From Eledone cirrhosa (lineage: Eukaryota): a DNA stretch of 64,000 nucleotides. Under the pieces are notes generated by a model. It did no database searches and had not been told where the DNA came from. It saw only the letters and a list, made by a program, of their open reading frames with translations. Below, piece by piece: positions 38,968 through 57,176 of the stretch (position 1 is the stretch's first letter; each line of letters opens with the position of its first letter). A program made the translations under genes and the position numbers. The DNA is taken from positions 184,326,001 to 184,390,000 of the forward strand of contig OZ024740.1 in assembly GCA_964016885.1 (NCBI GenBank), written 5' to 3'.

Positions 38968-39860
38968 CCAGGGAGATACATTGGCTCCCTACATTTTTAT
39001 CATCGTAGTGGACTATTGTATGCGCCTTGCACTAGAGAAACACCAGGACTCTGGCTTTACTGTAGCACCGGCTCAGAGCAGGAGAGTTGGGGCGAAAAAG
39101 GTATCGGATGCTGAATTTTCCGACGACATAGTTTTGGTGACAAATACAGTGAAGGAGGCAGAGGATTTGATGCGGGAAGTTGAGACTGTGTCGATGAGTG
39201 TGGGGCTGAGAATGAATGAGACTAAAACAAAATATCTGGTAGAGAATGTTGAGAAGCCAGAGGGGATCACTAATGTAGGCGGGAAGCCGCTAGAATTGGT
39301 TCAGGGCTTCCTCTATTTGGGAACAAAGATTGGGAATACGGAAGATGATGTGGTTGAGAGGAAGAGCGTGCCGCAGCTTGAGATCGGTGTGGAAGTCTGA
39401 CCTTCGTAGAGACCTGAAAATCCGCCTCTTCATTGCTGTAGTGGAGTCTGTGCTGCTGTATGGGTCTGAGACTTGGACACTGACCAAGAGACTCACTCAG
39501 ATGGTGGATGGGTGATACACGAGAATGCGGAGGATGGCTCTGAACATTAATCAGTATACACTGAGGATGAAAAACTCAGAGCTGTATGGGAGCATCCCAA
39601 ACGTCAGCTCAAAAGTGACACAGAGTAGACTGAGGTTAGCTGGACATGTTCACCGACATCCAGAGTTGACATTGCACTCAGTGCTCCTTTGGGAGACCCT
39701 ACATGGACACACTAGAAGAGGAAAACCAAGGTTAACGTATGTTGATGCCCTAAGGACAGACACTGGTCTGTTGGAGACGCAGGACATGGCAGCGATAATG
39801 AGGGGCAGAGACCGCTGGAGAGAACTCGTCCATGGATCTCGGGAATTTTACCCGCCTTAG
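38968..39860 (+). mobile_element. 5'-truncated RTE-like LINE (RT C-terminal half)
   Basis: LQGDTLAPYIFIIVVDY, FSDDIVL, FLYLG, VESVLLYGSETWTLT, RLRLAGH..RGKPRLTY; ends at (TA)n. Confidence 0.8.
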
Positions 39861-39877
39861 ATATATATATATATATA

Positions 39878-40097
39878 TTAAAATACAAATATTAATAAAA
39901 TAGATGTTCTTTAGATCAATTACATTTTATTAAACATATTTCGGATGTACGACTGTACGTCCTCATCAGACAAAATATAATAATACATGCTATACCCTGA
40001 GATGTTAAATGGTTAAGATTTAATCAAGGTAGTGATTAAACAAAATGTAATTGATCCAAAGAACATCTATTTTATTAATATTTGTATTTTAATATTA
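39878..40097. repeat. Inverted-repeat PLE-tail fragment containing a hammerhead motif (minus, 39924-39976)
   Basis: Arms 39878-39935 and 40040-40097. Reverse complement: ATTTTGT-CTGATGA-GGACGTAC agtc GTACATCC-GAAA-TATGTT-TA-ATAAAAT. Confidence 0.7.
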
Positions 40098-40194
40098 ATA
40101 ACTCTGGAAAATTGTTTATCGTAGAGTGCTTCCAATCTACTGTAAAACTCATTTTTTGACATACTCATTGAATCTTGTTTAACTATTTAATATA

Positions 40195-41907
40195 TTGGAA
40201 TAAATGCTCTGAAATAGCGATATATATGTGAATATAGACATAGAATATTCGAAAATATTCTGTATGTTTATAATAAACATTTTGAAGACCTAATCGCTAT
40301 AGAATAGAATACGTCACGTATTACAATTAGATTCTCGATAAAAGCAAGGGAAGTAATCTACGCGTTTCATTCTCGTTAGAAATCATCAGGACTACATATC
40401 CAGTGCTTTTATCGAGAATGACACAGCTAGAGACTTATAGAATACTTAGCTGTGTACAGGAACTGGTTTGAAAGAGCGGTTGCCGGTCCGGCAGAAATTA
40501 GAAATTGGAATAAATGCTCTGAAATAGCGATATATATGTGAATATAGACATAGAATATTCGAAAATATTCTGTATGTTTATAATAAACATTTTGAAGACC
40601 TAATCGCTATAGAATAGAATACGTCACGTATTACAATTAGATTCTCGATAAAAGCAAGGGAAGTAATCTACGCGTTTCATTCTCGTTAGAAATCATCAGG
40701 ACTACATATCCAGTGCTTTTATCGAGAATGACACAGCTAGAGACTTATAGAATACTTAGCTGTGTACAGGAACTGGTTTGAAAGAGCGGTTGCCGGTCCG
40801 GCAGAAATTAGAAATTGGAATAAATGCTCTGAAATAGCGATATATATGTGAATATAGACATAGAATATTCGAAAATATTCTGTATGTTTATAATAAACAT
40901 TTTGAAGACCTAATCGCTATAGAATAGAATACGTCACGTATTACAATTAGATTCTCGATAAAAGCAAGGGAAGTAATCTACGCGTTTCATTCTCGTTAGA
41001 AATCATCAGGACTACATATCCAGTGCTTTTATCGAGAATGACACAGCTAGAGACTTATAGAATACTTAGCTGTGTACAGGAACTGGTTTGAAAGAGCGGT
41101 TGCCGGTCCGGCAGAAATTAGAAATTGGAATAAATGCTCTGAAATAGCGATATATATGTGAATATAGACATAGAATATTCGAAAATATTCTGTATGTTTA
41201 TAATAAACATTTTGAAGACCTAATCGCTATAGAATAGAATACGTCACGTATTACAATTAGATTCTCGATAAAAGCAAGGGAAGTAATCTACGCGTTTCAT
41301 TCTCGAGAGCATTTATTCCAATTTCTAATTTCTGCCGGACCGGCAACCGCTCTTTCAAACCAGTTCCTGTACACAGCTAAGTATTCTATAAGTCTCTAGC
41401 TGTGTCATTCTCGATAAAAGCACTGGATATGTAGTCCTGATGATTTCTAACGAGAATGAAACGCGTAGATTACTTCCCTTGCTTTTATCGAGAATCTAAT
41501 TGTAATACGTGACGTATTCTATTCTATAGCGATTAGGTCTTCAAAATGTTTATTATAAACATACAGAATATTTTCGAATATTCTATGTCTATATTCACAT
41601 ATATATCGCTATTTCAGAGCATTTATTCCAATTTCTAATTTCTGCCGGACCGGCAACCGCTCTTTCAAACCAGTTCCTGTACACAGCTAAGTATTCTATA
41701 AGTCTCTAGCTGTGTCATTCTCGATAAAAGCACTGGATATGTAGTCCTGATGATTTCTAACGAGAATGAAACGCGTAGATTACTTCCCTTGCTTTTATCG
41801 AGAATCTAATTGTAATACGTGACGTATTCTATTCTATAGCGATTAGGTCTTCAAAATGTTTATTATAAACATACAGAATATTTTCGAATATTCTATGTCT
41901 ATATTCA
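40195..41907. mobile_element. Retrozyme-like tandem array 1 (310-bp unit, one hammerhead per unit)
   Basis: Unit starts at 40195/40505/40815/41125; orientation flips at 41305/41306. About 3.6 antisense + 1.9 sense units, with no differences seen by eye; no ORF of 60 aa or more inside. Confidence 0.9.
41431..41473 (+). ncRNA. Type I minimal hammerhead ribozyme (representative of 12 complete copies)
   Basis: GTAGTC-CTGATGA-T-TTCT aacg AGAA-T-GAAA-CGCG-TA-GATTAC; predicted cleavage after GUA at 41467. Stem I is extended by the 15-bp helix TTCTCGATAAAAGCA/TGCTTTTATCGAGAA. Confidence 0.9.
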
Positions 41908-41997
<90 letters not shown>

Positions 41998-42870: not shown

Positions 42871-42956
42871 TATATATATATATATATATGTGAATGAAGT
42901 AATTCCGTCGGAAAAGTCCTGGAAAAAAGAGTGCTCTATGTAGGTAACATAGCTTA

Positions 42957-43202
42957 ATAGTTATGTAATAAGCAACATAAGGCAATTATTCCATTTACCA
43001 GTGGTTTCTTAAAAGCAAAGAATGTTGCTTTCAATCATCAGAATGAAAAGATCCTTGTCTGTGTATTGAATTTGGATTTTAAAATCCAAATTCAATGAAC
43101 AGACCAGGATTTTTTCATTCTGATGATTGAAAGCAACATTTTTTTGCTTTTAAGCAACCACTGGTAAATGGAATAATTGCCTTATGTTGTTTATTACATA
43201 AC

Positions 43203-43205
<3 letters not shown>
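42957..43205. repeat. Spacerless palindrome of about 250 bp with a hammerhead in each arm
   Basis: Centre at 43080/43081. Minus 42990-43047 is intact: TTCATT-CTGATGA-TTGAAAGCAA..TTGCTTTTAA-GAAA-CCACTGG-TA-AATGGA. The plus copy (43114-43172) has GCAA instead of GAAA. Confidence 0.85.
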
Positions 43206-43236
<31 letters not shown>

Positions 43237-43244
43237 TATATTAT

Positions 43245-45240
43245 AACCAGCAGACTAACGCACAGGATAATTGTAACTGTAGAGCTAATAGAACCTGCCC
43301 TTTAGATAAAAAATGCCTAACCAAGGATATCATATACTCATGCACCGGCACGACTAGCAACTCTTCAGAAACCTATGTAGGCTCCACTTCTAACTGCTTC
43401 AAAATCAGATATAATTCGCACATCCACTCGTTCAAAAAGCACAGCCTAGCCAACTCCGCCTCACTTTCTAGCTACATACACTATCTAAAATCTAAAAATA
43501 AACCATACACACTCAAATGGGAAGTGATAGGCAGCGCGACCTCGTACAAACCACCTAATAAATTTTGTAACCTCTGTATACTAGAGACACACAATATTAT
43601 CTTCTCCAACCGTAACCTACTTAACAAAAAATCTGAGGTGTTTGCAACTTGCCAGCACCGCTTCAGACATTCCTTCCAAAACTTTAAGCCCAATATATAG
43701 CAATGTCGGACTGGAACCTAACACCACATCTAGCATCAAACACGAGAGGCACACCTTATACTACATACCCAACACTAAATGATCTAATATAACACAAACA
43801 ACGACATCCCTCTGGAACCCTTCGCAGGGAGAATACCCATTTATACCTCTACGTCAGGTGTGACAACATCCACCCACTTGAACTGCACTACACCGCTCTA
43901 TAGGTAATTTAAGCATGAATTGATCGGTTTGATAGTGTTGTGCGGAGGAAGCACCTTCCTTAGACAGATGAAAAACGATTTAATCTAGTAACGCTGTTGA
44001 GCAGTAGGACCAGGATGCTGAGCGCAGTGAGTGAATGCATTGCAACTGGCGTGCGGGTTTTACATATATGGATGATCTGGCGGTCAGAGAGGGGTCGTGA
44101 GGACTGCGGATTGACCTCTGGCCGGCCTGGAGATGATTATCTTTCGACATCCAATTTAGGAAGCGATGACCCAGAACTTACCAGAGATCATTGGGTCCTG
44201 AAGCAATCCTGCAATCACCGCGCCTGGTCCTATGAGTAGACTACAACCACAGAGATCATTAATTTAGAATCCTCGCTCATCATCTATAATATCCATTTGT
44301 GGCACCTTACGATGGGGGTTAATCCACCATAATAATATGAACACCTTCAGCATAACTTAATTAAACTACTCTATAGTTAATACACTTTATGCTTTAAAAA
44401 ATTTTTTGGAGGATGCGCATCACCATAGAAATTAGGGTCTATATTGTGACACATTTTAATAGCTAGGTATAGAAACCCCGGAGTTACTTCCCCGCATGCA
44501 TTAACTCCCCTTAGCCACACACACACTTCCGGGTGGTATTCAATGTCGTTTCTCGAAACGTAACAGCCTCCTGTATTGAACTAAAGAACATCAGACTACG
44601 ATTCTCTAACTGGATTGTCAAACGCTCAATATCGAATTGTCGTGGATTATGTGAAGGGCATATAATCGAAAAATACACTCCCCTGACCATGTAAATGTCG
44701 AAGTACATGAAATACTTGACATCCCTTCGCTGTGCATCTCCAATACTTTTAACACTTTTAATGCTTGCACTATTTTTAATGCTTATAACATTTCTCCACC
44801 CACAGACTATATCAATCATATAAAGAATTTGCCAACCTAACACTCTTGTTTACATACCTAAGTGCCTCTACCACACACATCTCTCTGCAACAATATATAA
44901 ACAAGACGCACATACTTGCCACACATATAACATTTGCACTATATAACCGCTTATCTTCATGTTGTATTTTAACCTGTATTTTTGATTTTTGATTGTACCT
45001 CTTAATATGAATGTAATCTCGAAGTTTGTACTGCCACTCTAAATTCTGTAATGAATGTTGACCCACAATATTTGCATATGTATCGGTATGTCTCTTGGCT
45101 GAAAAGGAGGTCATATAACTGTCCATGCATTAATAAATTGCTCCGAAGAATCCAAACCTCGGTTTGGAGGAAACAGCTGTAAGCACAATAATGTTTTGAA
45201 CAGTTCTTTGATTCTTATATTTCATATAACTGCTCTGTAA
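43245..45240 (+). mobile_element. 5'-truncated Penelope-like element (GIY-YIG remnant + long 3' region)
   Basis: 43255-43700 reads CNCRANRTCPLDKKC..IIYSC..TYVGSTS..RYNSH..CNLCILE. A hammerhead-like motif at 45139-45185 reads TGCT-CCGAAGA-stem II-GAAA-CAGCTG-TA-AGCA (U4C change). Confidence 0.75.
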
Positions 45241-45398
45241 ATCATCTGATGTTTTTACATTGAGCTACTTAACTTACTGGTAATAAGGTAGTAATACATT
45301 ACTGCCTACCACTATTTAGGGTGTGTATAAAAAATACTTATAACTGCATAAGGTTTTGTATTTACATAACCATAAATAGTAAAACTAATACTATATGT

Positions 45399-49100
<3,702 letters not shown>

Positions 49101-49102
49101 TG

Positions 49103-49604
<502 letters not shown>

Positions 49605-49620
<16 letters not shown>

Positions 49621-50458
49621 TACATATACATATATAAAATTATAGATATATATATGTTGCAACCGCTCACTTTTAAGCTCTATGAAGAATTAATAAATTA
49701 AATAATCAGAGCAATATATCATAAATCATGTCTTTAGAATTATTAGATAAAATATATACCGTTTCTTCTTCCAATTAGCATAATTAACCATATAAGAAAT
49801 CAATTAGACCAAGCTATAAGAGGAAAGACTCTTATGAAGAAATCTTCGACAAATAACCGAAAGTGGCCTCTTCGCGGTGGCCCCAATATAGTATATTTAT
49901 CCAACATTTCGACAGCATGTAGAAACTGACTAAATATATCATCAACCATACACAATTAGGTGTAAAATTAAACTTAGAAGAAATGTGTACATACCGTAAT
50001 TATATCTCTACCATGGTTTCATCCGTATTTTTAGACATCCAATTAATACGAAAGTCCTGAGTTAGGATTTATCAGGGGACAAACTCAAAATCATACATCT
50101 AGTTTTTCAACCTGAGCCCGCCAAAATTAGATTAAAAAATGGCTAAAAATCGCTATGTCACTGTGGTCAAGCTAGAAAGAATGTGATTGGCTGCTTACGG
50201 CGGGTAGGCTTGTTGCTAGAAAGCGCAGCCAAATATCGCCAGATTTAATCTAAACCCAACGGGAGATTATTAAATATAAAGGTTTACATATACATATATA
50301 AAGTTATAGATATATATCTTGCAACCGGTCACTTTTAAGCTCTATGAAGAATTAATAAATTAAATAATCAGAGCAATATATCATAAATCATGTCTTTAGA
50401 ATGGTTAATTATGCTAATTGGAAGAAGAAACGGTATATATTTTATCTAATAATTCTAA
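49605..50458. repeat. Unclassified repeat with direct (49605-49740 / 50270-50402) and inverted (49737-49790 / 50403-50458) duplications
   Basis: Direct reading; joined directly to the broken 3' end of the neighbouring PLE ORF. Confidence 0.6.
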
Positions 50459-53400
50459 TGTGATGTAGTCTTCGAGCGAAGTGGAGTGCCTTAGTTTTTC
50501 TATTTGTGAAAGAGTGGAGATGTGTTCGAAACCTAATTTTGAACGGGCCGGAGGTAGCCCCTATATAATGTTTAACGCTATTGTGGCTAGTAATAGTGCA
50601 TCTATATATAACCCTATCAGTCATGCAGTATCCTCTAAGGGGGCAGCGTCCTCTGTCGCGGCAGTTGCAATTTCTGTCGCGGTTCCGTCTATTTCCCACG
50701 ATAAGGCTATCATTGTTGCTGCCTACGTTGTTATCTACGCTATCGCAGCTGTCGTTAGCACCATTACAACCCACAGAACGTGGGGTGGTGCGATTGTTAT
50801 TCAGCACGTCATGTCCTGCATGTTCCCCAGTTATTTCGCGGTTATGCTGGTTGCGTCTGCGGATGCCGTTGTCAACACTATTGGATGCTGCCAGGGAGTT
50901 GTTAAGGCCGATATAGTTATTGTCAGCTGTAGGTGCGTCTGTGTCGAGGTGCTGTGTCTTGGTGATCTTACTGTGGTTCGTTGTTCCTATGATGTCTGCT
51001 AGGTTAGGAGTAGTAGTGAAGGATATTTTTATATTGTTCCTGTTAAGAATGTTTCTATATCTATGGTTGGGCGGGAAGTTCTTCTCTAAGGCTTCGAAGA
51101 ACATCCGGGGTATGTTGGAGGCCACACTCCGAGAGTGGGGGGGGGGGGACAATAGGACATTACGGTGGCGATTACGTGTCCTTGTACTTTTGCTACGGGT
51201 GGTTCCATCTAGGTGACCGCTCTTATGTGTGTTAATCCGCAGTCGCCCGTTCGGTGCCCCTTTCACTTTATGCTCGGGTGCACTCTTCCTACCTCTTCCA
51301 TGTTTATGTACACGAAGATGTTGGCTGGAAGGCGTTGGTAGTAGGCCGTCGCCTTTGTTGGTTTGGTAATAGGGGAATAGTTCGAGTAATCTACATTGTT
51401 CACCGTCGCCGTGGTCGTGATCTTTAGTGCGGTTATCTATTCCATTATATCCGATCAACGAGGTCTCCGCGTGATCGGTTATAGGTATGGCTTACTATAA
51501 CGTTCGTTTTATGAGGGGGTGGTTTCTAGAGCTAGCGTTAGGGATGTATGAAATTCCTCGGTTAAAGCCGGCAGCTTATCAAGGCCCTATTGTAGTAATC
51601 TGCCGCTTGGTTGAAGATATCCTCATTGGCGGATAGCCTCGAGATTCTATGTGAGATACTATAGACTATGGAGTTGAGAGTCTTCTTAGGGTGGTTGGAG
51701 GCATAATTAATATAAGAGAGGCACTCTCCAGGCTTATGGTATGGCTTGTATAAGCCCGTACTCAACTCCAGGGTCACGTCCAGGAAGTTGACAACACTGT
51801 GGTTGAGGTCCATAGTTACGGATAGGTCGTATAACTTCAAGAACCTGTGTATATGTTTGTTAAGGTTCTCTATCCTACGGGGGCTATGGTTCCTAACGGT
51901 AAACAGGGCGTCGTCCCTATATATACCTCCTTGTAGGGCCGGTATCTCTTTCCTAAGCTTATGTAGGAGGTATATCCCGACCAGGTCAGTTGCTTGCGCT
52001 GAGTCACTGGACCCCATCGTGACATCGAAGTTATCAGGACGGTTGGTTCTGGTCCAGTGGGAGCCTTCGAACTGGATTATTCTTTCTACGCGCCGCTAGA
52101 ATTATGTCTATTTCTTTTTTAGTGAGGCTAGTGTTAGATCTTGCTAAGATAAGTGCCTTATTTAAGAGTATGAGGGAGATAGAGGAGTAGTAACTATCTA
52201 TATCAAACTGGATGAATTTCAAGGTAGCTTTATCCGGCAACTCGGTGAACCAATTTATGACCTGGTCGGTGTTGCCCTAGAGGCAGACCTTAGCCTTTCT
52301 ATTAAGCTCCAGTAGTACTCTGTCGAGGATCACTTTACTAATCTTACCTATATCTGATGTAGAGGGGCACATTAGTCTAACAGAGGGGCTTTCATTAAAG
52401 TGATATTTGTGATCCTTAAGAGAGAATTTAGGCGTGAGAGGGACGTACGGGTTAGTGTACTTTTCTATTTCTAAGCTGGTGACTATATCCTTCCCTACTC
52501 TATTTATGTCATTTAGGGTACTAGAGGGTGTCTTTTTGTAGTCATTGTGTAGTTCCTTATAGATGATTTTTTTATACTTACTCGCGTCCATCTTGTACAG
52601 CTTTTTGGTTTTGTCGGAGGTGACGAAGATGTGCGGGTCATTCTTGATCTTAGTTATTAGTGTATCAAGGGACGTTAAGAATGGATTGCTGCATTGGTGT
52701 TTCTTTCTGAACTTAATGTTTTTGATCATTTTCAGCAGGTCCTCTTCAAAGGAGTCCAGTAAGGTGTTGTGCGGTGGGTTTCGGTATGTTTTGAAGCCAT
52801 ACCTCTCTTTGGGTTCAGGAAGGTTACGGGTGTTCTCGTCCAGGTGGTAGGCCTTCTATCTGACTCTCCGTATAAACGAATTAGTAGCGTCTATAAGCAG
52901 TTTAAGGTAGGTTTTTCTGCTGGGTAAGGGGATACACTTGAGAGACATGGGTAACGGCTGGTTCTCCAACATAATGGCAAATAAGGTGAGATGCTCTACA
53001 AAAGGAGCACAGTAATACAGTATTTACGTATCAAGAAAGAGAAAAAGGGGGAGGATAGGTGATACATATAGTTATTTGCCAAGTAGCGTATGCCAAAGGT
53101 GCTCGATACTAGTGCCGGCAGTATTAAATATTCGAAGTGTTAATATTTAGTGGGCTAGAGAGTTAGCAGAGCGTAAGTACGTGGGAAAGTAAAAAATCGG
53201 AGAATAGACCGTTAAAACATGTTTATTTAAAACAGCACCTACGTACGTATCGCCCAGTTGGGCTTCTCAAGGGCATAAATAATGAAAAGTGTTCCTTATA
53301 TTGCTCGGAAAGAGATTTTGGGGTTAAATCCACATCAAGGTTCATTGCTCGCAAAAAAAGCTTGTGTTGATTTTGCAGCAGGTCAAGGGAGATAACTCCG

Positions 53401-53985
53401 GCCGGTGTTAGGGCAGTCTTACCCGGACAATATTATTTTTTTTTTTGCCGCATCTGTTTGTCTGAGGCTGGGTCTGGTATGCAAGGATTGTTTCCTGGGT
53501 GTTATTTTGCAGCGCTTGCCCGCCGGGGTGTTAAGACTTGTTGCAGGGAGATCCGGTGTACGGTTTCACTCCTCATCTTTAACCCACCTGAAGAAGGATA
53601 TTTTTAAGCGATGTGTTAAACTTATCGCTGTTTCAGCTTTGTTGTTGATGAGCTCGTGGGGTGCAGTTATGATGTGGTAGAGCTCCATGAGGCAAAGATC
53701 GCATTTCCTCTTGAAGTTGTACGGTGCAGCCCTACCGACAACCTCCCAGTGCGTGGAGAAGCTGATGTTTAAGTCCTTTAGTGATGTGATGTAGTCCGCG
53801 AGCGAACTGAAGTGCCTTAGTTTTCTATTTGTGAAAGAGTGGACTACATCACATCACTAAAGGAATATTTAATACTGCCGGCACTAGTATCGAGCACCTT
53901 TGGCATACGCTACTTGGCAAATAACTATATGTATCACCTATCCTCCCCTTTTTTTCTCTTTCTTGATACGTAAATATTGTATATA
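50459..53985 (-). mobile_element. Near full-length Penelope-like element in partial-tandem (pLTR) arrangement, disrupted
   Basis: ORF from ATG 52972 (SLKCIPLPS..FIRRVR, FDIDSYYSSI, MGSSDSA, GGIYRDD, VIYRC..HYIGATS..RFRTH). Upstream 52975-53845 is the 3' end of a preceding copy (ORF end plus UTR). 53864-53985 is an inverted copy of 53015-53135. Confidence 0.9.
53235..53274 (-). ncRNA. Hammerhead-like motif, U3:A8 variant, in pLTR
   Basis: Reverse complement: GCCC-TTGAGAA-GCCC aact GGGC-GATA-CGTACG-TA-GGTGC. GATA replaces GAAA, so this copy is probably inactive. Confidence 0.55.
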
Positions 53986-54003
53986 TATATATATATATAT
54001 ATA

Positions 54004-56246
54004 TTGGAATAAATGCTCTGAAATAGCGATATATATGTGAATATAGACATAGAATATTCGAAAATATTCTGTATGTTTATAATAAACATTTTGAAGACCT
54101 AATCGCTATAGAATAGAATACGTCACGTATTACAATTAGATTCTCGATAAAAGCAAGGGAAGTAATCTACGCGTTTCATTCTCGTTAGAAATCATCAGGA
54201 CTACATATCCAGTGCTTTTATCGAGAATGACACAGCTAGAGACTTATAGAATACTTAGCTGTGTACAGGAACTGGTTTGAAAGAGCGGTTGCCGGTCCGG
54301 CAGAAATTAGAAATTGGAATAAATGCTCTGAAATAGCGATATATATGTGAATATAGACATAGAATATTCGAAAATATTCTGTATGTTTATAATAAACATT
54401 TTGAAGACCTAATCGCTATAGAATAGAATACGTCACGTATTACAATTAGATTCTCGATAAAAGCAAGGGAAGTAATCTACGCGTTTCATTCTCGTTAGAA
54501 ATCATCAGGACTACATATCCAGTGCTTTTATCGAGAATGACACAGCTAGAGACTTATAGAATACTTAGCTGTGTACAGGAACTGGTTTGAAAGAGCGGTT
54601 GCCGGTCCGGCAGAAATTAGAAATTGGAATAAATGCTCTGAAATAGCGATATATATTATAAACATACAGAATATTTTCGAATATTCTATGTCTATATTCA
54701 CATATATATCGCTATTTCAGAGCATTTATTCCAATTTCTAATTTCTGCCGGACCGGCAACCGCTCTTTCAAACCGGTTCCTGTACACAGCTAAGTATTCT
54801 ATAAGTCTCTAGCTGTGTCATTCTCGATAAAAGCACTGGATATGTAGTCCTGATGATTTCTAACGAGAATGAAACGCGTAGATTACTTCCCTTGCTTTTA
54901 TCGAGAATCTAATTGTAATACGTGACGTATTCTATTCTATAGCGATTAGGTCTTCAAAATGTTTATTATAAACATACAGAATATTTTCGAATATTCTATG
55001 TCTATATTCACATATATATCGCTATTTCAGAGCATTTATTCCAATTTCTAATTTCTGCCGGACCGGCAACCGCTCTTTCAAACCAGTTCCTGTACACAGC
55101 TAAGTATTCTATAAGTCTCTAGCTGTGTCATTCTCGATAAAAGCACTGGATATGTAGTCCTGATGATTTCTAACGAGAATGAAACGCGTAGATTACTTCC
55201 CTTGCTTTTATCGAGAATCTAATTGTAATACGTGACGTATTCTATTCTATAGCGATTAGGTCTTCAAAATGTTTATTATAAACATACAGAATATTTTCGA
55301 ATATTCTATGTCTATATTCACATATATATCGCTATTTCAGAGCATTTATTCCAATTTCTAATTTCTGCCGGACCGGCAACCGCTCTTTCAAACCAGTTCC
55401 TGTACACAGCTAAGTATTCTATAAGTCTCTAGCTGTGTCATTCTCGATAAAAGCACTGGATATGTAGTCCTGATGATTTCTAACGAGAATGAAACGCGTA
55501 GATTACTTCCCTTGCTTTTATCGAGAATCTAATTGTAATACGTGACGTATTCTATTCTATAGCGATTAGGTCTTCAAAATGTTTATTATAAACATACAGA
55601 ATATTTTCGAATATTCTATGTCTATATTCACATATATATCGCTATTTCAGAGCATTTATTCCAATTTCTAATTTCTGCCGGACCGGCAACCGCTCTTTCA
55701 AACCAGTTCCTGTACACAGCTAAGTATTCTATAAGTCTCTAGCTGTGTCATTCTCGATAAAAGCACTGGATATGTAGTCCTGATGATTTCTAACGAGAAT
55801 GAAACGCGTAGATTACTTCCCTTGCTTTTATCGAGAATCTAATTGTAATACGTGACGTATTCTATTCTATAGCGATTAGGTCTTCAAAATGTTTATTATA
55901 AACATACAGAATATTTTCGAATATTCTATGTCTATATTCACATATATATCGCTATTTCAGAGCATTTATTCCAATTTCTAATTTCTGCCGGACCGGCAAC
56001 CGCTCTTTCAAACCAGTTCCTGTACACAGCTAAGTATTCTATAAGTCTCTAGCTGTGTCATTCTCGATAAAAGCACTGGATATGTAGTCCTGATGATTTC
56101 TAACGAGAATGAAACGCGTAGATTACTTCCCTTGCTTTTATCGAGAATCTAATTGTAATACGTGACGTATTCTATTCTATAGCGATTAGGTCTTCAAAAT
56201 GTTTATTATAAACATACAGAATATTTTCGAATATTCTATGTCTATA

Positions 56247-56250
<4 letters not shown>
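54004..56250. mobile_element. Retrozyme-like tandem array 2 (same 310-bp unit)
   Basis: About 2.1 antisense units (54004, 54314, 54624), a flip near 54655, then about 5.1 sense units (hammerheads at 54844, 55154, 55464, 55774, 56084). One substitution seen (54775). (TA)n on both flanks. Confidence 0.9.
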
Positions 56251-56321
<71 letters not shown>

Positions 56322-56322
<1 letters not shown>

Positions 56323-56617: not shown

Positions 56618-56619
<2 letters not shown>

Positions 56620-57090
56620 TAGAATTAGAGCTCTGAAATAGCAATATATATATGGATGTATATATAATGTATTTTGCAATACACTTTATGCTTAATTAAA
56701 AGCATTTTGAAGACCGTACGCTATTGTTTCAGAGTAGTGACAAATTCACTTACTTTAATCTCAGCAAACAGGGGAGATAAGCCGACAAGGGCCTTGTTTC
56801 GCTTTTGTTGAAGCTTATCAAGGCTAACTACCCCTCCTCTCTACTGAGATTACTGATGTTATATTCTTATAGAATTCTAGTAAATAATCAGGAGCTGATT
56901 ATACAGACCGATTGTTGGTCAGGCAGGAATTAAAAATTAGAATTGGACCTCTGAAATAGCAATATATATATGGATGTATATATAACGGTCTTCAAATATA
57001 TATATGGATGTATATATATATATATATGGATGTATATATACGGTCTTCAAAATGCTTTAAATTAAGCATAAAGTGTATTGCAAAATACAT

Positions 57091-57100
<10 letters not shown>
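56618..57100. mobile_element. Diverged 318-bp retrozyme-like unit with short inverted arm
   Basis: CTCTGAAATAGC recurs at 56631 and 56949; blocks shared with the 310-bp unit. Hammerhead on minus 56779-56826: TAGCC-TTGATAA-GCTT caacaa AAGC-GAAA-CAAGG c CCTTG-TC-GGCTT. 57041-57100 is an inverted copy of about 56657-56717. Confidence 0.8.

Positions 57101-57176
<76 letters not shown>

What the first reader, a model, noticed from the sequence alone, without database searches (positions are those of the whole stretch)
54004..56250. Second array of the same unit has identical outer ends but a different inversion point
Seen: both arrays begin at (AT)n|TTGGAATAAATGC and end at TCTATATTCA|AT-rich. Both have an antisense arm followed by a sense arm, so both 3' ends face outward. 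They differ in unit number (3.6+1.9 vs 2.1+5.1) and junction (41305 vs about 54655). The ends lie about 164 and 130 nt downstream of the cleavage site, at AT-rich spots, not at the cleavage site. Inference: these are two independent insertions. Both ends of a cut (TA)n target primed reverse transcription at two fixed internal sites by microhomology, ran through several cleavage sites (rolling on a circular RNA or an uncleaved multimer), and the two cDNAs were joined centrally.
Basis: partly seen in the sequence, partly recalled or inferred. Interest (0 to 1): 0.88.

Follow-up and report, generated by a model that had tools for sequence, protein, structure and literature searches.

The report
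Two-armed Penelope-type ribozyme repeat insertion
This is one of over a thousand recent genomic insertions of a 310-base repeat with a self-cutting-RNA motif, each laid down as two back-to-back arms with one long and one short outer end, and the way both arms share rare mutations suggests that a Penelope-type transposon enzyme likely copied one small circular RNA round and round from both sides of a DNA cut.

Summary
Observation confirmed. Both arrays are head-to-head arms of a 310-nt type I hammerhead unit (non-LTR retrozyme), with outer ends about 130 and 165 nt past the predicted cleavage site, different junctions and unrelated flanks. Genome-wide, 91 of 91 complete two-armed arrays pair one short with one long end (62 not selected on both ends). 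This layout is the published Penelope-like-element (PLE) footprint: inverted 5'-truncated copy, 30-40 bp 'tail' at one end, two internal RT start sites. It is not new. What the data add: arms share one haplotype in 71 of 74 arrays (chance 0.08-0.12); three tested array-wide variants have no long uniform source array in the assembly; array-wide variants are A>G-enriched; inner ends avoid the ribozyme cut; 7 of 9 informative sites show 11-14 nt target duplications. Best reading: dual target-primed reverse transcription on one RNA, most likely a monomer circle. Three or four arrays fit a multimer instead. No RNA evidence, no partner PLE found, junction not bridged by outside contigs. This scan reported the same family and idea before on other DNA of this genome.

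The parts
54003..54656 (-). Array 2, long-end (tail-plus) arm, 2.11 units; outer 3' end at monomer 163-165
   Evidence: exact match
54654..56250 (+). Array 2, short-end (tail-minus) arm, 5.15 units; outer 3' end at monomer 128-130; one substitution at 54775
54654..54656 (.). Central head-to-head junction, 3-nt overlap (monomer 132 against 84)
55154..55196 (+). One of five sense-arm minimal type I hammerhead motifs (cores start at 54850, 55160, 55470, 55780, 56090; predicted cuts after 54880, 55190, 55500, 55810, 56120); 6-bp stem I, palindromic ACGCGT helix III
   Evidence: no Rfam hammerhead hit on this unit
54162..54514 (-). Two hammerhead motifs of the antisense arm (cores start at 54508 and 54198 on the minus strand)
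53980..54004 (.). Left (TA)n target remnant of array 2
56251..56322 (.). Right (TA)n target remnant of array 2
40194..41305 (-). Array 1, long-end arm, 3.59 units
41306..41907 (+). Array 1, short-end arm, 1.94 units; blunt junction at 41305/41306 (monomer 294 against 149)
40185..40195 (+). Left copy of array 1 target-site duplication (8-11 nt)
41907..41917 (+). Right copy of array 1 target-site duplication

Best explanation
This is a young insertion of a non-coding hammerhead retrozyme with the Penelope-type two-armed footprint, likely made when a PLE endonuclease/reverse transcriptase cut both strands of a (TA)n tract and both DNA ends primed cDNA synthesis on the same RNA molecule, most likely a 310-nt monomer circle. 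Shown from sequence: head-to-head arms; one short (about 125-139) and one long (163-172) outer end per insertion; 11-14 nt target duplications where readable; random inner ends; one haplotype per array across both arms; microhomology or templated inserts at the junction. Inferred: transcription, dimer-type hammerhead cleavage and ligation give monomer circles; a PLE protein, probably a dimer, makes a staggered cut leaving 3' overhangs of about 8-14 nt; one end starts at the short site (helped by pairing of TA DNA with the AU tract), the other about 35 nt further 3'; each RT laps the template until it stops at random (mean 4.9 laps); the two cDNA ends are joined by microhomology-mediated end joining. 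A minority of events use a multimeric template or switch template.
For: 91 of 91 complete two-armed arrays are short+long, none short+short or long+long, among 104 parsed; 62 were not selected on both ends. Target duplication with a non-TA base at 7 of 9 informative sites, permutation mean 0.4, maximum 3. Inner ends even around the circle: chi-square p=0.20; 5 of 176 within 10 nt of the ribozyme cut, 11 expected. Same majority haplotype in both arms in 71 of 74 arrays; 29 haplotypes; chance 0.125, or 0.084 (62 of 65) without arrays picked on the reference ribozyme. Variants are array-wide (136) or single-unit (118), rarely between (13). Genome counts of three array-wide variants: 20 of 22, 18 of 26 and 12 of 19 hits lie in the one array, and no other uniform run as long exists. 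Array-wide substitutions are A>G at 9 of 29 sites against 7 of 119 single-unit ones (Fisher p=6e-4), 8 of the 9 in predicted helices, three on 2-3 haplotype backbones. A linear copy of a typical genomic arm should put about 29 single-unit variants at matching positions in both arms (0.35 per kb over 83 kb); 2 exact cases and one block were seen. Junction overlap of 2 nt or more in 39 of 65 insert-free junctions against 20% in simulated blunt joins; 23 of 88 carry inserts. Same rule in a 69%-identical 318-nt family (11 of 22 loci clear) and in an intact-ORF PLE of this genome (14 of 14 loci with both ends in view). In vitro precedent for both-strand extension and two internal start sites (PMC11167929).
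Against: L069, L082 and L113 carry a variant or haplotype block at the same lap in both arms and not in later laps (L098 off by one lap), which a plain monomer circle cannot give; L060 has arms that differ over four laps. No RNA run is tied to this unit, so cleavage, circularisation and expression are untested. The single motif folds no better than shuffles (z -0.12). PMC11167929 found ribozyme cleavage dispensable, uncleaved RNA the main substrate, and no homology at initiation. The assembly is one haplotype set, so source arrays may be missing. The A>G excess could come from tolerance of G-U pairs rather than editing. The mobilising PLE was not identified. Outside contigs did not bridge the 54655 junction. 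Samples come from the first listed matches on one contig, and most were picked on one or both ends.
Confidence: 0.62

Rival explanations
1. Same dual priming, but the template is an uncleaved linear multimer transcribed from an existing genomic arm; both RTs start in the same or neighbouring unit.
For: Lap-matched variants in both arms of L069, L082, L113; uncleaved RNA is the main substrate in vitro (PMC11167929); arms longer than 21 units exist as possible sources.
Against: About 29 lap-matched variants expected, 2-4 seen; no uniform long source for three tested variants; new variants become array-wide, which needs a one-unit bottleneck; long arms such as L097 are mosaic yet daughters are uniform. 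Probably true for a minority of events.
Confidence: 0.2
2. The template is a cleaved linear monomer that the RT re-reads by jumping from its 5' end back to its own 3' end, giving the same product as a circle without covalent closure.
For: Explains the one-unit bottleneck equally well; a jump to another RNA would explain the L113 switch, whose interval includes the ribozyme cut.
Against: No excess of inner ends (5 against 11 expected) or of single-unit changes (5 against 5 expected) at the cut site, where jumps should fail or add bases; haplotype switches are rare.
Confidence: 0.1
3. Short inverted insertions were expanded and homogenised later at the DNA level (unequal crossover, gene conversion between arms), as proposed for retrozyme tandems in bioRxiv 10.64898/2026.07.22.740005.
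For: A few very long arms show repeated variant patterns (L097, L051, L052); conversion between arms could give the lap-matched variants.
Against: Only 13 intermediate-frequency variants against 136 fixed and 118 single; arrays are nearly mutation-free yet already 2-20 units long in both arms; strand-biased A>G excess among array-wide variants.
Confidence: 0.05
4. The inverted arm arises by self-priming or fold-back (PMC3846280), by L1-type twin priming on one concatemer, or the inversions are assembly chimeras.
For: Palindromic junctions are reported for PLEs (PMC3846280) and three selected autonomous loci here have near-symmetric junctions; outside contigs do not bridge this junction.
Against: Either arm may be longer (long-end arm longer in 51 of 91); junction phases independent (median distance 79.5 nt, 77 expected); equal extents 2 against 1.4 expected; inner ends not enriched at the start sites (29 against 27); unique non-mirrored flanks and target duplications; outside contigs show TA loose ends at monomer 139 and 170.
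Confidence: 0.03

Closest known systems
Metazoan non-LTR retrozymes (Cervera and de la Pena 2020, PMC7229834; Li, Clavereau and Pollet 2026, bioRxiv 10.64898/2026.07.22.740005)
   Same: Tandem units of about 300 nt, low GC, one type I hammerhead each, no ORF, thousands of copies; circular RNA template and PLE mobilisation proposed.
   Different: Those texts do not describe inverted two-armed arrays or a tail ('inverted' 0 hits in the first; 'tail' 0 hits in the second). Circular RNA is shown there and untested here. The 2026 preprint leans to DNA-level tandem expansion.
Canonical insertion structure of EN+ Penelope-like elements (PMC8557442; PMC3846280)
   Same: Inverted 5'-truncated copy at the 5' end, head-to-head, 30-40 bp tail at one end only, target duplications of 8-10 bp, (TA)n targeting in Neptune/Naiad clades.
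   Different: Here the cargo is a non-coding 310-nt unit in multi-lap arms; pairing of one short with one long end is near-absolute; junctions are not palindromic.
PAc (Poseidon, green anole) in vitro mechanism (Frangieh et al. 2024, PMC11167929)
   Same: Both strands cut and extended, AT-rich target, two internal RT start sites that define the tail, predicted dimer.
   Different: No homology at initiation and ribozyme cleavage dispensable there; no test of circles, of one RNA serving both ends, or of one-site-per-end pairing.
L1 twin priming (recalled, not from a call)
   Same: Two target ends prime on one RNA, giving an internal inversion joined by microhomology.
   Different: L1 uses the poly(A) tail plus a variable internal site and the arms do not overlap; here both sites are fixed windows and both arms cover the same sequence many times.

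Membership tests
Non-LTR retrozyme | Tandem units of 150-450 bp, low GC, no coding frame | tested here: met
   310-nt period, GC about 34%; no ORF of 120 aa or more over the arrays
Non-LTR retrozyme | Type I hammerhead motif in every unit | tested here: met
   Core motifs, 6-bp stem I and short palindromic helix III in all 12 complete window units, matching the description in PMC4209133; no array-wide variant hits an invariant core base; Rfam gave no hit on this unit
Non-LTR retrozyme | Self-cleavage activity | not testable with these tools
   Needs in vitro transcription of monomer and dimer
Non-LTR retrozyme | Expressed as linear and circular monomer RNA | not testable with these tools
   No RNA holder listed
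Non-LTR retrozyme | Dispersed copies with target duplications longer than 4 bp | tested here: met
   Over 1000 ends; duplications of 11-14 nt at 7 of 9 informative sites
PLE-type insertion | Inverted 5'-truncated copy, head-to-head | tested here: met
   9 of 10 arrays picked only on the ribozyme; 95 of 104 parsed arrays two-armed
PLE-type insertion | 30-40 bp tail at one end only | tested here: met
   Ends about 35 nt apart, 91 of 91 complete arrays
Autonomous PLE | ORF with RT and GIY-YIG endonuclease | tested here: not met
   Unit is non-coding; it is a passenger
Non-autonomous derivative of a specific PLE | Terminal sequence shared with an intact PLE | tested here: inconclusive
   The one intact family examined has an 80-nt tail; blast of the unit against 30 of its loci hit only stray retrozyme-like inserts in two; other families not examined

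The most novel reading that the evidence does not exclude
Every insertion is one concerted reaction in which a PLE dimer holds a single edited circular RNA, assigns one cut DNA end to each of two fixed start sites and rolls both RTs around the circle, so the genome keeps a lap-by-lap record of circular-RNA retrotransposition; the same rule covers 3.5-kb autonomous PLEs (five near-identical units in one arm), which would explain PLE tandems, inverted repeats and tails by one mechanism.
Probability: 0.5. Interest if true: 0.78.

Novelty: new member of a known kind. Interest (0 to 1): 0.52.

Why it matters
How PLEs make their tandem and inverted insertions is called undefined in PMC8557442, and circular RNA as retrotransposition template was proposed in 2014 and 2020 (PMC4209133, PMC7229834) without direct proof. 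Over a thousand young, nearly mutation-free insertions give genetic evidence that both arms come from one re-read monomer, and a minimal 310-nt substrate with mapped start windows for a direct test. The layout itself is known, so the value is as evidence and test system, not as a new kind of element.

Tried and rejected
DNA search of the own genome with the unit returned nothing because common words are skipped; patterns were used instead. Rfam found no hammerhead on the unit, only AT-repeat noise and a weak HH9 hit (E 0.14) on the related family. No RNA holder listed. Laying four runs on the junction: none of the listed pieces bridges it, the raw-read run laid nothing, and a hole proves nothing; empty-site alleles remain untested. 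A 54-nt PLE piece in the L090 junction looked like a template switch onto PLE RNA but is a perfect copy of DNA about 0.8 kb away in the flank: rejected as evidence of a partner, kept as a templated repair insert. The 272-nt insert of L071 matched nothing held. Neighbouring PLE fragments (42900-47100, 49600-53870) share no terminal sequence with the unit. Pfam and PDB sequence searches did not recognise the intact PLE frame; the Atlas gave look-alikes with GIY-YIG, RVT_1 and HTH_animal families on 18-99% of members, leads only. Strand bias of single-unit changes (T>C 20, A>G 7) is borderline, p=0.054. Segmental duplication of one window array from the other: rejected. Rows dropped: L034, L045, L126 (parser confused by the unit's 16-nt internal inverted repeat) from junction and haplotype counts; 14 more arrays with an arm under one unit from the arm comparison; L060 and L113 from the single-variant counts; five common backbone variants from the A>G test.

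Full report
Observation. The window holds two arrays of one 310-nt unit. Numbered from the predicted hammerhead cut, array 2 is an antisense arm 54003-54656 (2.11 units, outer end at 163-165, inner end 132) and a sense arm 54654-56250 (5.15 units, inner end 84, outer end 128-130) with a 3-nt overlap; array 1 is 3.59 plus 1.94 units with a blunt junction at 294/149. The flanks are unrelated. Array 1 has a target duplication of 8-11 nt. Each unit has a minimal type I hammerhead with a 6-bp stem I and a palindromic helix III, the kind described as needing a dimer to cleave (PMC4209133, passages read). The linear monomer folds better than shuffles (z -3.9); the lone motif does not.

Genome survey. 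The window lies in a 3.0-Gb genome. Exact patterns gave 1030 long ends with TA flank, 1197 short-end matches, some of them internal variant units, and 4033 reference-type ribozymes; only the first 100 places of each, all on contig C1, were listed. I fetched 100 stretches and parsed 104 arrays including the two in the window: 91 complete two-armed arrays, all minus-then-plus and all with one short and one long end; 4 two-armed with one end out of view; 9 with one arm in view, of which 4 are cut by the stretch edge or an N gap and 5 look truly single-armed. By selection: 9 of 10 picked only on the ribozyme, 27 of 31 picked on the long end, 26 of 34 picked on the short end, 27 of 27 from loci picked on both, plus the window pair. 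The 62 complete arrays not picked on both ends are the real test; free choice of site would give half of them mixed. Long ends fall at 163-172 (the mode at 165 is inflated by selection), short ends in or just before the AU tract at about 125-139; 14 of 36 arrays not picked on the short end run into the tract. Target duplications of 11-14 nt, counting bases shared with the element, are readable at 7 of the 9 sites with a non-TA base near the end; permuted pairs give 0.4. A top strand that continues from the duplication as antisense sequence, mirrored on the other side, is what priming from both 3' overhangs predicts (inference).

Inner ends and junctions. The 176 inner ends are evenly spread (p=0.20) and do not collect at the ribozyme cut (5 seen, 11 expected) or at the start sites (29 seen, 27 expected); the two phases are independent and either arm can be longer (51 of 91), with weak length correlation (rho 0.25, p=0.017). 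So the RTs do not run to a fixed template end, and fold-back or L1-type twin priming does not fit. Of 88 junctions 23 have inserts, several copied from nearby sequence, and 39 of the other 65 overlap by 2 nt or more against 20% in simulation: microhomology-mediated joining is inferred.

One template per insertion. In 71 of 74 arrays with both arms over one unit the arms have the same majority haplotype, among 29 haplotypes (chance 0.125; 62 of 65 and 0.084 without reference-picked arrays); 16 variants seen in only one sampled array are fixed in both its arms; the spectrum is 136 array-wide, 118 single-unit and 13 intermediate over 266 kb. I counted three of the 16 genome-wide: 164T has 22 hits, 20 in its array; 216G has 26, 18 in its array and 4 scattered in one long array; 137C has 19, 12 in its array and 4 in a second, shorter two-armed array. 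No uniform source as long as the daughter arm exists in this assembly. Genomic arms carry about 0.35 single-unit substitutions per kb, so copying a linear multimer from a typical arm should leave about 29 lap-matched variants in both arms; this assumes sources are as variable as the sample. Seen: L069 and L082 exactly, L113 as a two-unit block, L098 off by one. These cases count against a pure circle model and suggest multimers or joint template switches in roughly 5% of events. L060 gains A276G after lap 4 in one arm and has it throughout the other, which fits a template changed between laps but is a single case. Following a lead from an earlier scan note, array-wide changes are A>G at 9 of 29 sites against 7 of 119 single-unit changes (p=6e-4), mostly in predicted helices: A-to-I editing of the template or selection for pairing, either acting on the RNA unit.

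Generality. A 318-nt family 69% identical to the unit, with a copy at window 56618-57115, ends at the homologous positions: 11 of 22 loci clearly short+long, 4 single-armed, 7 irregular including two with two short-type ends. An intact-ORF PLE family (3531-nt unit, 784-aa frame with YRDD, GIY-YIG-like and Cys motifs read by eye; Neptune-like by recall) has two ends 80 nt apart, one at each side, in 14 of 14 loci with both ends in view out of 17; 8 of these were picked as inverted pairs. One arm holds four full units differing by 0-1 nt. It is not shown to be the mobiliser of this unit.

Literature. PMC8557442 (passages): inverted 5'-truncated copy, 30-40 bp tail often at one end only, (TA)n bias, mechanism undefined. 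PMC3846280 (passages): head-to-head most frequent, tail, 8-10 bp duplications, self-priming model. PMC11167929 (parts 1-2 of 4): both strands cut and extended, two internal start sites bounding the tail, predicted dimer, ribozyme not needed. PMC7229834 (passages and Discussion) and PMC4209133 (passages): circles proposed as templates for more-than-unit cDNA. bioRxiv 10.64898/2026.07.22.740005 (part 1 of 5, passages, Discussion): retrozymes derive from PLE termini. Searches showed no paper reporting strict end pairing, shared arm haplotypes or editing marks in retrozyme arrays; the older PLE papers of 2001-2008 were not read, and supplementary figures (a life-cycle scheme in PMC7229834, end mapping in PMC11167929) were not seen and may already draw dual priming.

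Earlier scan notes describe the same family and reading at other places in this genome; they are not independent support.

Verdict. Real, ordinary in architecture for PLE-mobilised DNA, and a new member of the non-LTR retrozymes. Its worth is the genetic evidence that both arms of an insertion are copied from one re-read RNA monomer. Dual priming on one RNA: about 0.85. That the RNA is usually a covalent circle: about 0.62.

Noticed in passing
window 56618-57115: Older related retrozyme family (318-nt unit, 69% identical, U3-A8 variant hammerhead core with long helix III), two-armed with ends at homologous positions; 326 pattern matches in the genome.
   Followed up: yes
window 39860-40190: Small inverted element with a different hammerhead motif (core at 39969, minus strand); array 1 sits at its edge, and the same flank sequence borders a related-family insertion in L131.
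   Followed up: partly
window 45600-48235: Copy of a recently active PLE family with many intact 784-aa frames elsewhere; variant hammerhead in its terminal repeat, 80-nt tail.
   Followed up: partly
L199-L200 (G000:C1:437198000-437217000): One PLE arm of about 16 kb with four full 3531-nt units differing by 0-1 nt, opposite a 284-nt arm.
   Followed up: partly
L194, L195, L196: Autonomous PLE insertions whose two arms stop within 13 nt of each other, unlike the retrozyme; may mean both RTs reached the end of one broken linear RNA. Loci were selected for two long arms.
   Followed up: no
window 49650-53870: Decayed PLE on the minus strand with a degenerate hammerhead in its terminal repeat and a 24-nt inverted piece at 53843-53866, directly left of array 2.
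   Followed up: partly
window 42950-43200, 4874 and 6158: Further hammerhead-like motifs in opposite orientations, probably other short two-armed PLE remnants.
   Followed up: no
L097, L051, L209: Arms over 22 units; L097 and L051 show repeated variant patterns, and L209 scattered 216G units, suggesting later DNA-level expansion.
   Followed up: partly
run X4, record 9: A single 340-nt contig (310 plus 30) from another organism label matches the unit, as expected for a uniform tandem or circle; run type unknown.
   Followed up: no
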